Source of the DNA: a virus
Lineage: Duplodnaviria; Caudoviricetes
Strand: one strand, 5' to 3'
DNA: 64,000 nt
IMG/VR virus record: IMGVR_UViG_3300022555_000004
The notes beneath the pieces are model-generated. The model saw only the letters and a list, made by a program, of their open reading frames with translations. It made no database searches and was not told the origin of the DNA. The position numbers were made by a program, and so were the translations under genes. Positions 43,809 to 62,741 of the stretch are shown here, piece by piece (position 1 is the first letter of the stretch; each line of letters starts with the position of its first letter).

Positions 43809-43908
43809 CAGGTGTAGTAGGATTTCATACCTACATGAAAACTTTAATTATCCTCTGAATATTATGTTTTCACCAGAGTCCCGCGTCTTTGTGTTCCGCC
43901 ATACACCT
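43809..43908 (-). tRNA. tRNA-like gene with expanded 33-nt anticodon loop
   Basis: AGGTGTA/TACACCT acceptor, GTAGG/CCTAC T-arm, GCG/CGC D-stem. Confidence 0.5.
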
Positions 43909-46331: not shown

Positions 46332-47339
46332 CTATTCTTTGTTCTTCAATAAAAAATCATTGTTGAGGCATTTAATACTCATTCTGCCATTCATTGCCCG
46401 TGAAACCATTTCTACGACTGGACGAATAACAATTCCTTCACGGAAATTATTAGTATCTTCATACACACCCTTTGCCATTTCTAACAATTCATCAACTGAA
46501 TTATTGAAATACCATATATCAATAATAGGCACCATTTCAAGTTGCAAATCTCGACAAACTTGTTTTAGTTCTTCAAAGTTTGCATATCGTTGTTCATCAA
46601 TAAACCATACATTGAATACAAACAATTTATGTCCTTTCAATTTCAGATGGTTCTTTTGTATTCCTTCGCCACACAACTCTGCCTGTATAGCAATATTCTT
46701 ACCATATTTCAAAAGTTTGTCTTGTAAGTCATACTTATACATCATTTTGATATAGATGTTGTCATCATTACCTTCTAATTTCAAGGCATTGTTGCGAGAA
46801 CAAACATTGATTTCATCGTTCAAACATCCAATCGTCCAACTTGTGCCATCACACTTTACGGTACTATAGACCTTCACGCCCCGTAACTCATTGATTACAT
46901 CAGGGTAGTTTTGTATCCTATCTTCATCTGTCTTAGGAATATAAGGCGGAAAATTACCTTTGATTAGCCCACGCATTTCAGGTGGTATTGGTTTTTCATA
47001 ATGAGTAACACCCAAAACATTAGAAATATCCAAATCTTCTTCAATAAGAAACGGAAATGGATAATCGGCCAAAATTGTAATTGGAAATACAATGCCTTGG
47101 GACAAAGCGCCACGTAATCTTTTGGTTTTGATACGGAATTTTTCTTTTCGTAAAAATTCAAAAATCATTGATTCACGTACAATAGAATCAAGGGCAATAT
47201 AAACACATAAATCACCAACTCTAAAGTCGCCACGCTTAGTCACAACCTGCCAACCCAAGACTTTTACTACATCTAAAAAGTCTGAATTTTCAACAGGCTG
47301 AACATCAATTATTCTTTGGATGGTTGCTTCTCTGGACAT
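46332..47339 (-). CDS. RNA ligase (Rnl2/DRB0094 family) with N-terminal OB domain
   Basis: TVKCDGTS, CSRN, QAELCG, REGIVIR, IK. Confidence 0.9.
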   Translation of the reverse strand: MSREATIQRIIDVQPVENSDFLDVVKVLGWQVVTKRGDFRVGDLCVYIALDSIVRESMIFEFLRKEKFRIKTKRLRGALSQGIVFPITILADYPFPFLIEEDLDISNVLGVTHYEKPIPPEMRGLIKGNFPPYIPKTDEDRIQNYPDVINELRGVKVYSTVKCDGTSWTIGCLNDEINVCSRNNALKLEGNDDNIYIKMMYKYDLQDKLLKYGKNIAIQAELCGEGIQKNHLKLKGHKLFVFNVWFIDEQRYANFEELKQVCRDLQLEMVPIIDIWYFNNSVDELLEMAKGVYEDTNNFREGIVIRPVVEMVSRAMNGRMSIKCLNNDFLLKNKE

Positions 47340-49092: not shown

Positions 49093-49284
49093 TTATTTTA
49101 CTATTTTTCTTATAAATCGTTCTGTTATTCTGTATGCAAAAGAACAAATAGCAACACCAACACATATCAAAACTATGATAACTGCAAAAATTCCTGTTAA
49201 ACAACCGATTAACAGGAATATACTTAGTAATACTATGTATATGAATGGATGTTCTAATAGTTTTATTTTATATTCCTTTTTCAT
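49093..49284 (-). CDS. Small membrane protein
   Basis: Hydrophobic core. Confidence 0.55.
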   Translation of the reverse strand: MKKEYKIKLLEHPFIYIVLLSIFLLIGCLTGIFAVIIVLICVGVAICSFAYRITERFIRKIVK

Positions 49285-49994
49285 ACAATTTCCTTATACA
49301 TATTTTTTTTACTATTTTTTTTACTATTTTTTCTGCCTTTGAACCACCCTTGTTTCAAATAATAATCAAGGTCGCTTTTTATGATTTTTTTATTTTCAAT
49401 GATGTTATATATCCAACATGTTCCGAATTGTGAATTTTTTTGCCCTTCATGTAATCCTGTATGTTTTTCACTCATTTTTCTCTTAGTTTCTTCTGAATGA
49501 CGTTTGCCTTTAAAAACATTCCCTGCGATTTCACTTCTTTTTTGTTTTATATCAGGAGAACCATTATGCGCCCATGATTCTAATCGTTTGTCTATTCCCA
49601 ACATACTAATTATTGATTTATAATTTTCACCATATTTTTCTTTCAATTTTATATCAGCGGTTATTCTTCCTTTTTTACATCGTTCAATATGATCTTTTGA
49701 ACCATCGTTTAAATAATCCCAACCACCTTCGTCACCTCGTTTGAGATTATACGTATTACCGGACTTCAAATATTCGTCTGTAACCAATTCTGATTCTTTG
49801 TCATCCATGTCCTTTTTGTTATCAAACACATGAAGAACCGTTTTCTCAAAACAATCTTTGCCATACTTGTTTATGGCACGTTTCAAATATTTTCCTGAAC
49901 CTAAGTAATTATCATAGATATTGTCTGTTTGATGTTTACCTATATATATTTTACCGTTCGCCTTGTTTCTAACTTCATATACGATATAGTTCAT
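49281..49994 (-). CDS. Seg-like GIY-YIG homing endonuclease inside the tRNA cluster
   Basis: YIVYEVRNKANGKIYIGKHQT, YLGSG, YNL; TATAAATA at 50014..50021. Confidence 0.88.
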   Translation of the reverse strand: MNYIVYEVRNKANGKIYIGKHQTDNIYDNYLGSGKYLKRAINKYGKDCFEKTVLHVFDNKKDMDDKESELVTDEYLKSGNTYNLKRGDEGGWDYLNDGSKDHIERCKKGRITADIKLKEKYGENYKSIISMLGIDKRLESWAHNGSPDIKQKRSEIAGNVFKGKRHSEETKRKMSEKHTGLHEGQKNSQFGTCWIYNIIENKKIIKSDLDYYLKQGWFKGRKNSKKNSKKNMYKEIV

Positions 49995-50293: not shown

Positions 50294-50419
50294 TGGCGGC
50301 GTGTTCGCTCTATCAGTAAGAGATCGATCGATTTTTTCACTCCATCATGTATTGTAAGTCTATCTTTATAAGCGCTATTTTGATTCCTCTGCTTTACACA
50401 ACTTCCCTGAAAACACACC
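50294..50419 (-). ncRNA. 126-nt tRNA-like element
   Basis: GGTGTGTT/AACACGCC stem plus GCCA end; spaced like a tRNA within the array. Confidence 0.45.
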
Positions 50420-50431
50420 ATATTATATTTT

Positions 50432-52091: not shown

Positions 52092-52167
52092 TGGTGCTGC
52101 TTCAGGGAGTTGCACCCCATTCTCATGTTCTTCAAACATACGCTATCACTGGACTAGCTCAAGCAGC
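52092..52167 (-). tRNA. tRNA-Phe(GAA)
   Basis: Loop TT-GAA-GA. Confidence 0.85.
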
Positions 52168-62272: not shown

Positions 62273-62333
62273 ATATATCTCACTTTTTCCTTTGATTATA
62301 ACATAAATCCAAGGATTTGTCAACATAAAATAA

Positions 62334-62357
62334 AACCCCATGATATCATGGGGTTTC
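62334..62357. terminator. Hairpin after the tRNA cluster
   Basis: AAACCCCATGA/TCATGGGGTTT. Confidence 0.6.
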
Positions 62358-62364
62358 CTTATTT

Positions 62365-62438
62365 TGGTGCAACCGGCGGGAGTCGAACCCGCCTTTACTG
62401 GTTAAAGCCAGTTACTAAACCAGATCAGTTACGGCTGC
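62365..62438 (-). tRNA. tRNA with 6-nt anticodon loop CTTTAA (Lys-like, or UUA-reading)
   Basis: Perfect ACTGG/CCAGT stem; canonical T-arm; ACCA end. Confidence 0.7.
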
Positions 62439-62443
62439 ATGTT

Positions 62444-62572
62444 TGGTAGGGTGTGCTTGGAATTGAACCAAGCGGCCACGTCATTATCAGTGAAGTAACT
62501 CTTATCTACACCACCGAATGGGGAACAAACGACAAAAGAAATTATCGTGCTCTAACACTGAGCTAACACCCT
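62444..62572 (-). tRNA. tRNA-Ile(GAU) with a 52-nt insertion in the anticodon stem
   Basis: AGGGTGT/ACACCCT acceptor, GCTC/GAGC D-stem, loop CT-GAT-AA; insert 62494..62545. Confidence 0.7.
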
Positions 62573-62581
62573 ATATTGTTT

Positions 62582-62655
62582 TGGTCTGCGATCAAGGAGT
62601 TGAACCTTGTACATACGGGCCCAGGCCGTAGATGTCACCCATACACCAATCGCAG
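62582..62655 (-). tRNA. tRNA-Pro(UGG)
   Basis: C1-G72, A73, loop CC-TGG-GC. Confidence 0.82.
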
Positions 62656-62712
62656 ATTATTTGAAATTTTTTCTAAATTTTTAATTACGTTTTTTGCTTT
62701 TATTCTATAAAC

Positions 62713-62741
62713 ACTATACCATACTTTTCTTTGCCTGTCAA
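62713..62741 (-). promoter_or_regulatory. Sigma70 promoter for the tRNA cluster
   Basis: TTGACA-17nt-TATAGT. Confidence 0.7.

What the first reader, a model, noticed from the sequence alone, without database searches (positions are those of the whole stretch)
62444..62572. tRNA-Ile(GAU) interrupted by a 52-nt hairpin insert at position 28/29
Seen: removing 62494..62545 restores CGTCA-CTGATAA-TGACG and a 77-nt tRNA. The insert ends pair with each other (TAATTTCTT/AAGAGTTA). It is too short to be a group I or II intron. Inference: protein-dependent (archaeal-style) splicing in a bacterial virus, or an extra arm tolerated in the mature tRNA. Together with 43809 and 50294 this suggests a pattern.
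Basis: partly seen in the sequence, partly recalled or inferred. Interest (0 to 1): 0.6.

Follow-up and report, generated by a model that had tools for sequence, protein, structure and literature searches.

The report
tRNA-shaped Y RNA, not an intron
The "interrupted tRNA-Ile" of this lake phage is most likely not a tRNA awaiting splicing: it is a complete tRNA shape that permanently carries the docking arm for the RNA-surveillance protein Ro60, a rearranged form of the known bacterial and phage "Y RNAs" that I did not find described in the papers I could search.

Summary
The 129-nt minus-strand gene is real. Deleting 62494-62545 does give an ARAGORN tRNA-Ile(GAU).

The 52-nt "insert" is not private to this genome. 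It is the loop-closed form of the terminal stem of phage YrlA-type Y RNAs, the partner RNAs of Ro60 (TROVE).
- Its right half (GGUGGU-GUAGAUAAGAGUUACUUC) and left half (CUUUUGUCGUUUGUUCCCC) recur in tRNA-like RNAs on seven unrelated IMG/VR phage contigs. There they stand in the opposite order, about 100 nt apart.
- All seven contigs encode TROVE, six within about 1 kb on the same strand.
- The two halves pair, and the pairs covary.
- A profile built only from those RNAs hits the window element twice (E 7e-10 and 8e-9), in circularly permuted order.
- After permutation the element is about 75% identical to one of them.

So this is a tRNA-order relative of YrlA, with an open acceptor end carrying CCA and a capped Y stem. 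It most likely works unspliced as a Ro60-docking tRNA-Ile look-alike.

A second phage lineage keeps 126 of 129 bases despite 19-45% silent-site divergence. I found no BHB, ribozyme or intron signature.

This scan has reported tRNA-shaped Y RNAs before, on other DNA.

The parts
62444..62572 (-). Whole 129-nt tRNA-order Y RNA gene, from 5' A1 at 62572 to 3' ACCA at 62447-62444
   Evidence: Identical in independent assemblies L010 and L011; 126/129 identical in L006/L007. Family profile hits at E 6.9e-10 and 7.7e-9.
62566..62572 (-). Acceptor 5' strand AGGGUGU, which pairs 7/7 with 62448-62454
   Evidence: pair probabilities 0.87-1.0.
62549..62563 (-). D arm GCUC-AGUGUUA-GAGC (no G18G19)
   Evidence: Aligns to the D arm of the canonical units.
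62546..62548 (-). A-C-G. C and G form the two outer pairs of the anticodon-like stem with 62480-62479 (tRNA 27:43 and 28:42)
   Evidence: The same 'GAGC-ACG' precedes the left block in L019.
62520..62538 (-). Left block (L) of the Y arm: CUUUUGUC (upper-helix strand), GUUUGUU (conserved internal loop), CCCC (lower-helix strand)
   Evidence: Consensus CUCUUAUCGCUUGUUNCCCC in seven Ro60 phages.
62516..62519 (-). AUUC tetraloop that caps the Y arm where canonical Y RNAs have their 5' and 3' ends
   Evidence: L lies 29 nt upstream of R only in the window and L006.
62494..62515 (-). Right block (R) of the Y arm: GGUGGU (lower helix), GUA, GAUAAGAG (upper-helix strand), UUACU
   Evidence: GUAGAUAAGAGUUAC(UUC) is identical in seven IMG/VR contigs. 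R8:L8 covariation.
62481..62493 (-). Anticodon-like hairpin UCA-CUGAUAA-UGA, with GAU at 62488-62486
   Evidence: Canonical relatives carry comparable 7-nt loops (CUACGAA, UUGCAAA, AUGUCAA, CAUUUAA).
62455..62478 (-). Variable region UGGCC and T arm (G)CUUGG-UUCAAUU-CCAAG(C)
62444..62454 (-). Acceptor 3' strand ACACCCU, discriminator A, encoded CCA
62582..62655 (-). tRNA-Pro(UGG), co-transcribed upstream neighbour (10-nt spacer)
62365..62438 (-). tRNA-Lys(UUU)-like gene with a 6-nt anticodon loop, downstream neighbour (5-nt spacer)
62713..62741 (-). Sigma-70-like promoter TTGACA-17-TATAGT (11/12, TG) in front of the three RNA genes
62332..62357 (-). Intrinsic terminator closing the three-gene RNA operon

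Best explanation
The gene encodes a 129-nt stable RNA that stays unspliced. It is a circularly permuted ('tRNA-order') member of the phage YrlA-type Y RNA family. It is transcribed from an early-type promoter together with tRNA-Pro and a tRNA-Lys-like gene. It is presumably released by RNase P and 3' trimming, like a tRNA. It folds as a tRNA L-shape with a 7-bp acceptor stem ending in ACCA, a D arm and a T arm. Its anticodon stem is a three-way junction. Two outer pairs (C-G, G-C) and an inner 3-bp stem with the loop CUGAUAA flank a side arm of about 45 nt that leaves the 5' strand between tRNA positions 28 and 29. The arm has an 8-bp upper helix (CUUUUGUC/GAUAAGAG), a conserved asymmetric internal loop (GUUUGUU opposite UGUA), and a short G-C lower helix with a U mismatch, capped by AUUC. 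In canonical relatives the same two strands form the terminal 5'/3' stem, which in Y RNAs is the Ro60 (Rsr) binding site. Shown here: the homology, the permutation, the helix, the conservation, and the family's tight link to TROVE genes. Inferred: that the phage's own Ro60 docks on this arm; and that the tRNA-Ile-like body with its CCA end is the effector part, as bait or decoy for tRNA-recognising enzymes (anticodon nucleases, repair or modification enzymes, IleRS) or as a tether that brings Ro60 and a host exonuclease to them.
For: (1) A scan of IMG/VR with 14 nt of the insert plus a T-loop consensus gave 7 contigs, where far fewer than 1 was expected. All 7 carry tRNA-like RNAs with the same R and L blocks. 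(2) TROVE/Ro60 (PF05731, above the curated cut-off) is present in 7 of 7 of these contigs, and within about 1 kb on the same strand in 6 of 7. It is absent from 4 of 4 IMG/VR relatives of the window phage, none of which has the tRNA-embedded module, and from the 1 contig with a chance pattern hit. About 0.7% of GenBank phages match a Ro60 query. (3) Rfam YrlA aligns full length to these units at E 4e-9 to 3e-3. (4) An nhmmer profile built only from the 8 canonical units finds the window element as its two best hits: model 1-65 at 62515-62451 (E 6.9e-10) and model 46-129 at 62607-62520 (E 7.7e-9). The two halves are in swapped order. Ordinary tRNAs score E >= 0.0025. (5) After in-silico permutation the element shares 93 identical positions with L019:9149-9268 (element 125 nt, unit 120 nt). 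(6) The R8:L8 helix covaries: GAUAACAA/UUGUUAUC, GAACAGUG/CACUGUUC, GAUUGCAG/CUGCGAUC, GAGAACAG/CUGUUUUC. RNAalifold finds 22 pairs, 12 with compensatory changes. The one window-versus-L006 change inside the helix turns G.U into A-U. (7) There are 0 changes in the 77 tRNA-body positions and 3 in the 52 arm positions, against 19-45% four-fold-site divergence in the flanking genes. (8) L019 has the same split of the anticodon-like stem (ACG ... UCC-loop-GGA-CG).
Against: No Ro60 gene lies in the 64-kb window (tblastn). The published Rsr-contact motif GNCGAAN0-1G (PMC4201824) is not matched exactly: the window has GGUGUAG and several relatives have GCCGUAG. Rfam YrlA does not score the element itself (13 bits on a neighbouring stretch), as expected for a permutation. 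ViennaRNA prefers another fold by about 10 kcal/mol (-41.6 against -31.4), with a hairpin ACGAUAA/UUGUCGU that is not conserved in relatives. Only two lineages (window and L006) show the tRNA order, and strict pattern scans found no further permuted copy in IMG/VR.
Confidence: 0.72

Rival explanations
1. Intron-containing tRNA-Ile(GAU). The 52 nt are cut out by proteins (host or phage nucleases) and the halves are rejoined by the phage RNA ligase, giving a working 77-nt tRNA. The conserved arm is the recognition handle for that machinery, possibly with Ro60 as chaperone.
For: Exact removal gives a perfect anticodon stem and an ARAGORN tRNA-Ile with A73 and encoded CCA. The phage encodes an RNA ligase at 46332-47339, and relatives carry RtcB plus RNA ligase near the tRNA cluster. 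Short unexplained tRNA 'introns' are reported in Lak megaphages (10.1101/356790).
Against: There is no BHB at the junctions and no ribozyme or intron family. The same L and R blocks form the terminal stem of permuted, acceptor-capped RNAs, where excision cannot yield a tRNA. The arm is conserved across unrelated phages at the level of a protein-binding site (R block 15/15 identical). An intact, different tRNA-Ile(GAU) exists about 1 kb beyond the window end (L010:1387-1459). The spliced product would have an extra nucleotide in the acceptor/T helix and no G18G19. No insert-free version was found.
Confidence: 0.1
2. The same conserved module, but its partner is not Ro60. The arm binds some other protein or RNA, and the co-occurrence with TROVE genes in other phages is indirect.
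For: The Rsr motif GNCGAAG is only approximated. In the window phage and in G005 the RNA lies tens of kb from the TROVE gene. G001/G002 have a free-standing RNA with the R motif but no TROVE on their incomplete contigs.
Against: TROVE is present in 7 of 7 contigs and adjacent on the same strand in 6 of 7, which is the criterion used to define YrlA (PMC4201824). Rfam YrlA gives full-length matches.
Confidence: 0.08
3. A decoding tRNA-Ile that keeps the extra arm. It is charged by IleRS and used on the ribosome.
For: It has an open 7-bp acceptor stem, A73, encoded CCA, U12-A23 and a GAU anticodon with A37 A38 in a 7-nt loop.
Against: An arm of about 45 nt leaving the anticodon stem at 28/29 should clash in the ribosomal A and P sites (inference from tRNA-ribosome geometry). 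G18G19 are absent and the acceptor/T stack is 13 bp or bulged. A normal tRNA-Ile(GAU) is already encoded. In relatives the equivalent loops show varied, partly unnatural 'anticodons' on RNAs without a free CCA end.
Confidence: 0.06
4. A decayed or chimeric tRNA pseudogene, for example a fusion of two neighbouring tRNA genes, with no function.
For: The insert contains a weak second 5'-half (GGUGGUG-UA...) that Rfam aligns as a tRNA at 23 bits. This genome holds other aberrant tRNA-like genes.
Against: 126/129 identity against 19-45% silent divergence. The arm is homologous to a structured, covarying family.
Confidence: 0.04

Closest known systems
YrlA (Y RNA-like A; Rfam RF02553; Chen et al. 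2014, PMC4201824; structure in Wang et al. 2018, 10.1101/312249)
   Same: Both have a tRNA-like body with conserved T and D arms, plus a long stem that in this family is the Ro60/Rsr site. Both occur in phages that encode Ro60. The seven canonical relatives found here match RF02553 full length, and the window element matches their profile.
   Different: The topology is circularly permuted. Here the acceptor stem is open, 7 bp long and ends in ACCA, and the Ro60 stem is closed by a tetraloop. In YrlA the ends lie in the Ro60 stem and the acceptor stem is a closed loop. [quoted passage not shown] The motif reads GGUGUAG rather than GNCGAAG. The gene sits in a tRNA operon, not next to the Ro60 gene.
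Phage Ro60 with Y-RNA-like Yrl1/Yrl2 of Thermus phage phiLo (PMC12135203)
   Same: A phage-encoded Ro60 with phage-encoded partner RNAs built as stem, internal loop, stem. A role in hijacking host PNPase has been proposed.
   Different: Those RNAs are canonical 5'/3'-stem Y RNAs next to the Ro60 gene with a CGAA motif. No tRNA-order form is described.
'Enigmatic' tRNA introns of Lak megaphages (Devoto et al., 10.1101/356790)
   Same: Oversized phage tRNA genes in which removing a short, highly conserved insert restores a cloverleaf. No known splicing mechanism.
   Different: I did not compare sequences. Some Lak inserts are tRNA-shaped and lie in other positions. No link to Ro60 was reported.
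Archaeal non-canonical BHB introns and permuted or split tRNA genes (Nanoarchaeum, Cyanidioschyzon)
   Same: Extra sequence at a non-37/38 position of a tRNA gene. A relationship by circular permutation exists between family members.
   Different: There is no bulge-helix-bulge at the junctions, no known splicing endonuclease in bacteria or their phages, and the insert is a conserved protein-site-like module.
Stable RNAs co-transcribed in the T4 tRNA cluster (species 1 and 2; recalled from memory)
   Same: Non-tRNA stable RNAs embedded in a T4-like phage tRNA operon and released by tRNA-processing enzymes.
   Different: No sequence comparison was made. No Ro60 link is known.

Membership tests
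YrlA-type Y RNA (RF02553) | tRNA-like domain with conserved T arm and D arm | tested here: met
   Cloverleaf arms. The profile of canonical units aligns T arm, D arm and linkers. 93 identical positions to L019:9149-9268 after permutation.
YrlA-type Y RNA (RF02553) | Bipartite stem (Ro60 site) made of one strand leading into the variable/T-arm side and one strand following the D arm | tested here: met
   The R and L blocks are present in exactly those positions. The 8-bp helix covaries in the family and pairs as 6 Watson-Crick plus 2 G.U in the window.
YrlA-type Y RNA (RF02553) | RNA termini in the Ro60 stem; acceptor-like stem closed by a loop; no free CCA | tested here: not met
   In the window and L006, L lies 29 nt upstream of R with an AUUC cap, and the acceptor stem is open with ACCA. 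This is the permutation that makes it a variant rather than a plain member.
YrlA-type Y RNA (RF02553) | Motif GNCGAAN0-1G on the 5' strand of the stem (PMC4201824) | tested here: inconclusive
   The window has GGUGUAG (two differences). Relatives have GCCGUAG (one difference). L012 has an exact CGAAG directly before the R motif.
YrlA-type Y RNA (RF02553) | Gene within about 4 kb of a Ro60/TROVE gene on the same strand | tested here: not met
No TROVE in the 64-kb window. The criterion is met by 6 of the 7 canonical relatives.
YrlA-type Y RNA (RF02553) | Rfam score at or above gathering (69 bits) | tested here: not met
   No YrlA hit on the element. Canonical relatives score 32-44 bits.
YrlA-type Y RNA (RF02553) | Binds Ro60/Rsr | not testable with these tools
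   Needs EMSA or RIP with the phage Ro60.
Archaeal/eukaryal protein-spliced tRNA intron | Bulge-helix-bulge (3-nt bulges separated by 4 bp) carrying both splice sites | tested here: not met
   An exhaustive search of the 129 nt found no BHB with bulges at nt 26-28 and 78-80.
Archaeal/eukaryal protein-spliced tRNA intron | Splicing endonuclease (EndA/Sen) encoded by the organism | not tested
   Only 64 kb of a genome of about 229 kb is visible. None was seen among the ORFs scanned.
Group I / group II intron or small self-cleaving ribozyme | Catalytic core recognisable by covariance model; sufficient size | tested here: not met
   The insert is 52 nt. No intron or ribozyme family at E <= 10 in 62300-62700.
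Elongator tRNA-Ile(GAU) | Continuous cloverleaf recognised by tRNA finders; G18G19; 12-bp acceptor/T stack | tested here: not met
   Not called by ARAGORN or Rfam unless 52 nt are removed. The D loop AGUGUUA lacks GG. There is an extra C, or a 6-bp T stem.

The most novel reading that the evidence does not exclude
This is a natural 'tRNA with a Ro60 handle'. It is processed, CCA-ended and possibly chargeable by IleRS, with the Ro60-binding stem as a fifth arm. It would be the unpermuted counterpart that the YrlA literature only speculated about. It would show how Y RNAs arose from tRNAs, because tandem copies convert one topology into the other. It would also physically couple Ro60 to the tRNA world, for example as bait for anticodon nucleases or as a Ro60-escorted tRNA-Ile mimic during infection.
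Probability: 0.3. Interest if true: 0.8.

Novelty: new variant of a known kind. Interest (0 to 1): 0.6.

Why it matters
Y RNAs are the obligatory partners of Ro60 from bacteria to humans, and what the tRNA-like half of bacterial YrlA does is an open question. A family member that keeps the true tRNA order, with a free CCA end and a real-looking anticodon loop, has two consequences.
- It gives a concrete intermediate for the proposed origin of YrlA from tRNA.
- It offers a testable substrate. Can it be charged? Which tRNA-binding enzymes see it? Does Ro60 binding change that?

For phage biology it points to Ro60 plus tRNA mimics as an RNA-level counter-defence or RNA-repair module in T4-like phages.

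For annotation, it warns that "phage tRNAs with short introns in the anticodon stem" may be Y RNAs and not split tRNA genes.

Tried and rejected
**Searches that found nothing**
- ARAGORN intron mode does not see the gene.
- Exact-pattern scans of IMG/VR with exon or insert stretches found nothing. A 20-mer scan of JGI metagenomes found nothing.
- Blast against GenBank phages found no homologue.
- Four IMG/VR relatives of the phage have no copy of the element and no TROVE.
- Sub-threshold Rfam hits in relatives' tRNA clusters showed no interrupted tRNAs of this kind.
- Strict scans for further permuted (L-loop-R) copies in IMG/VR gave only a tandem canonical array, one chance hit in a coding region without TROVE, and nothing.

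**Tools or data that were not available**
- Several ENA contigs of close relatives had no DNA on file. L016 was too short.
- I tried to find this phage's own Ro60 through a homologue search. It returned 8000 TROVE proteins, and none in the top 120 came from the 229-kb contig.
- Bxz1 YrlA was not found at gathering score. The supplement of PMC4201824 is not held.

**Ideas rejected**
- Shared motif with the tRNA-like genes at 43809 and 50294: not significant.
- Recent duplication of the intact tRNA-Ile: the two genes are dissimilar.
- The thermodynamically favoured hairpin ACGAUAA/UUGUCGU as a real element: it is not conserved in relatives.
- BHB splicing.
- A hammerhead-type core in CUGAUAA: wrong consensus and no Rfam hit.

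Full report
**1. What is in the sequence.** On the minus strand, 62572-62444 reads as follows:
- acceptor strand AGGGUGU, then UA;
- D arm GCUC-AGUGUUA-GAGC, then ACG;
- 52 extra nucleotides;
- UCA-CUGAUAA-UGA-CG, then UGGCC;
- a T arm with the loop UUCAAUU;
- ACACCCU, discriminator A, and an encoded CCA.

ARAGORN, with or without intron mode, and Rfam at gathering score do not call it. Removing 62494-62545 gives a 77-nt sequence that ARAGORN calls tRNA-Ile(gat).
- ARAGORN still called a tRNA in 140 of the roughly 8,000 deletion variants tried, so it does not fix the junction.
- The product has one nucleotide too many between T stem and acceptor strand, or a 6-bp T stem.
- The D loop lacks G18G19.

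**2. Context.** The window comes from an uncultured T4-like phage with UvsW, gp32, DnaB with an intein, NAD ligase, RNA ligase and seg-like GIY-YIG genes. The gene sits in a compact RNA operon:
- a sigma-70-like promoter (62741-62713);
- tRNA-Pro;
- the element;
- a tRNA-Lys-like gene;
- a terminator (62357-62332).

The spacers are 10 and 5 nt, so the RNA should be released by the usual tRNA end-processing enzymes (inference).

**3. Conservation.** Independent assemblies of the same phage are identical (L010, L011). A second lineage (L006/L007, Logan) has neighbouring proteins about 90% identical, yet keeps 126 of 129 bases. All three changes lie in the insert. Four-fold degenerate sites of the two flanking genes differ by 19% and 45%. 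The flanking tRNAs are only about 62-65% alike. Both the tRNA body (0/77 changes) and the insert (3/52 changes) are therefore under constraint, which argues against a pseudogene. An intact but quite different tRNA-Ile(GAU) lies about 1 kb beyond the window end (L010:1387-1459), so the phage does not depend on this gene for decoding.

**4. Tests of the intron reading.** There is no group I/II intron or small ribozyme at E <= 10. There is no bulge-helix-bulge whose bulges coincide with the junctions. ViennaRNA does not favour the cloverleaf-plus-arm fold (-31.4 against -41.6 kcal/mol). The competing hairpin is not conserved in relatives, so I treat it as fortuitous.

**5. The turn.**
- A 14-nt piece of the insert (GUAGAUAAGAGUUA) also occurs in a structured RNA after tRNA-Pro in two IMG/VR relatives.
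- Scanning IMG/VR for that 14-mer followed 15-45 nt later by a T-loop consensus gave seven contigs from unrelated phages, where far fewer than one is expected by chance (UvsW shows they are not relatives).
- In all of them the motif is the start of a tRNA-like RNA. The order is: R block (GGUGSY-GUAGAUAAGAGUUACUUC), an anticodon-like hairpin, a variable region, a T arm, an acceptor-like stem capped by a UNCG-type loop, UA, a D arm, a linker, then the L block (CUCUUAUCGCUUGUUNCCCC).
- The window insert consists of exactly these two blocks in the opposite order, L then R, joined by AUUC.

**6. What that family is.**
- Rfam YrlA (RF02553) aligns full length to these units at 32-44 bits (E 4e-9 to 3e-3). 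That is below gathering, but the alignment shows the T arm, acceptor-like hairpin and D arm order typical of YrlA (Bxz1 control).
- TROVE/Ro60 (PF05731) is present above the curated cut-off in 7 of 7 contigs. From the coordinates, the RNAs lie within about 1 kb of it on the same strand in six.
- By contrast, 0 of 4 relatives of the window phage and 0 of 1 chance-hit contig have TROVE. About 0.7% of GenBank phages match a Ro60 query.
- This is the criterion by which YrlA RNAs were defined (PMC4201824).

**7. Structure of the arm.**
- The 8 nt GAUAAGAG of R pair with CUCUUAUC of L.
- Across units the pair covaries: GAUAACAA/UUGUUAUC, GAACAGUG/CACUGUUC, GAUUGCAG/CUGCGAUC, GAGAACAG/CUGUUUUC, and GAGGAGAG/CUUUUUUC through G.U.
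- RNAalifold on eight units recovers this helix plus the T, acceptor-like and D helices: 22 pairs, 12 with compensatory changes.
- In the window the helix is CUUUUGUC/GAUAAGAG (6 Watson-Crick plus 2 G.U). The L006 change makes one G.U an A-U.
- Below the helix lie a conserved asymmetric loop (GYUUGUU opposite GUA) and a short GG.GG/CCCC helix.
- The strand GYCGUAG or GGUGUAG resembles the published Rsr-contact motif GNCGAAN0-1G but does not equal it.

**8. Membership of the window element.**
- An nhmmer profile built only from the eight canonical IMG/VR units finds the element as its two best hits in the 64-kb window. Model 1-65 (R to T arm) matches 62515-62451 at E 6.9e-10. Model 46-129 (acceptor region, D arm, L) matches 62607-62520 at E 7.7e-9. 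The two halves are in swapped order. Ordinary tRNAs reach only E >= 0.0025.
- After cutting the element at the AUUC loop and joining its ends, it shares 93 identical positions with L019:9149-9268 (element 125 nt, unit 120 nt). The shared stretches include 'UAGCUCAGUG..AGAGCACG' and the same split of the anticodon-like stem.
- In all 14 IMG/VR units the partner L lies downstream of R: 82-118 nt with a tRNA-like body, or 33-43 nt in 'mini' stem-loops. Only in the window and L006 does L lie 29 nt upstream.
- The element is thus a circular permutation of a YrlA-like RNA. The ends have moved from the Ro60 stem to the acceptor stem.

**9. Interpretation.** The L/R stem forms the termini of the canonical relatives, so it cannot be an intron there. 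The R block is identical in phages that share nothing else. The simplest reading is that the arm is a protein-binding handle that stays in the mature RNA. Ro60 is the obvious partner, given the genomic linkage and the YrlA homology.
I could not reach that DNA. No TROVE lies in the window.
- What the tRNA-Ile-like body does is inferred only. [quoted passage not shown] It could therefore be seen by IleRS, modification enzymes, anticodon nucleases or the phage RNA ligase.
- Relatives show other anticodon-like loops: CUACGAA, UUGCAAA, AUGUCAA, CAUUUAA.

**10. Relation to earlier work.**
- Phage Ro60 and Y RNAs are known (PMC4201824, PMC12135203, PMC7824862).
- Wang et al. describe YrlA as resembling circularly permuted tRNAs and speculate about tRNA-dimer origins.
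- I found no paper describing the unpermuted, CCA-ended form.
- Lak-phage 'enigmatic tRNA introns' (10.1101/356790) are the closest published description of the symptom.
- Other agents of this scan reported tRNA-shaped Y RNAs on other genomes. Those notes gave me the lead. The tests above are my own and agree with them.

**11. Verdict.** The intron reading is not supported, and the extra-arm reading is supported and sharpened. The feature is a new topological variant of a known RNA family, most likely working as a Ro60-docking tRNA mimic.

Noticed in passing
window 62365-62438 (-): The downstream neighbour is a tRNA-Lys(UUU)-like gene whose anticodon loop has only 6 nt (CUUUAA). It is identical in independent assemblies L010 and L011. 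The related phage L006 has an ordinary tRNA-Lys(UUU) in the same slot, only about 64% identical.
   Followed up: partly
L012:1417-1560 and L013 (IMG/VR relatives G002/G001): A free-standing, strongly structured RNA of about 140 nt directly after tRNA-Pro contains ...UACGAAG-UAGAUAAGAGUUAG. That is an exact CGAAG (Rsr-type motif) fused to the R motif, predicted single-stranded in a multiloop. No TROVE was found on these incomplete contigs. The same loci also carry a phage tmRNA gene with tag ADYSYSYAMAA.
   Followed up: partly
L022:2227-2290, L019:9070-9130, L018 near 10776 (-), L021 near 326 (+): These are 'mini' Y RNAs: the R and L blocks are joined by only 33-43 nt with no tRNA-like body, and stand in the same arrays as the full units. 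The family therefore exists in three topologies.
   Followed up: partly
L017-L023, hairpin after the R block: The small hairpin between the Ro60 stem and the T arm often looks like a true anticodon loop with U33 and A37 but with varied triplets (ACG, GCA, GUC, UUU, AUU, ACC). The point where the Y stem leaves the anticodon-like stem also varies (26/27, 28/29, about 29/30).
   Followed up: partly
L010:1387-1459 and L006:186-259: The intact phage tRNA-Ile(GAU) genes have unusual T loops (AUCGAUA, AGCGUUA) in place of UUCRANN.
   Followed up: no
window 50294-50431 (-) and 43809-43908 (-): Two further aberrant tRNA-like genes. One has a paired acceptor-type end plus GCCA but no recognisable T loop. 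The other has Leu-type acceptor, D and T arms and a replaced anticodon region. Neither carries the Y module.
   Followed up: partly
window 52095-52167 (-): A tRNA found by Rfam (42.5 bits) but not by ARAGORN.
   Followed up: no
window 46332-47339 (-) and 49281-49994 (-): An RNA ligase (PF09414 plus the PHA02142 OB fold) and a seg-like GIY-YIG/NUMOD3 endonuclease lie inside the tRNA region. Relatives (L007 and the contig that encodes P0004) carry RtcB, NADAR and RNA ligase next to the radical-SAM-like gene.
   Followed up: no
protein search with L028:955-2253: Short TROVE proteins of about 435 aa are extremely common in metagenomes. All 8000 scored candidates reached E <= 1e-10, many on small phage-like contigs.
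   Followed up: no
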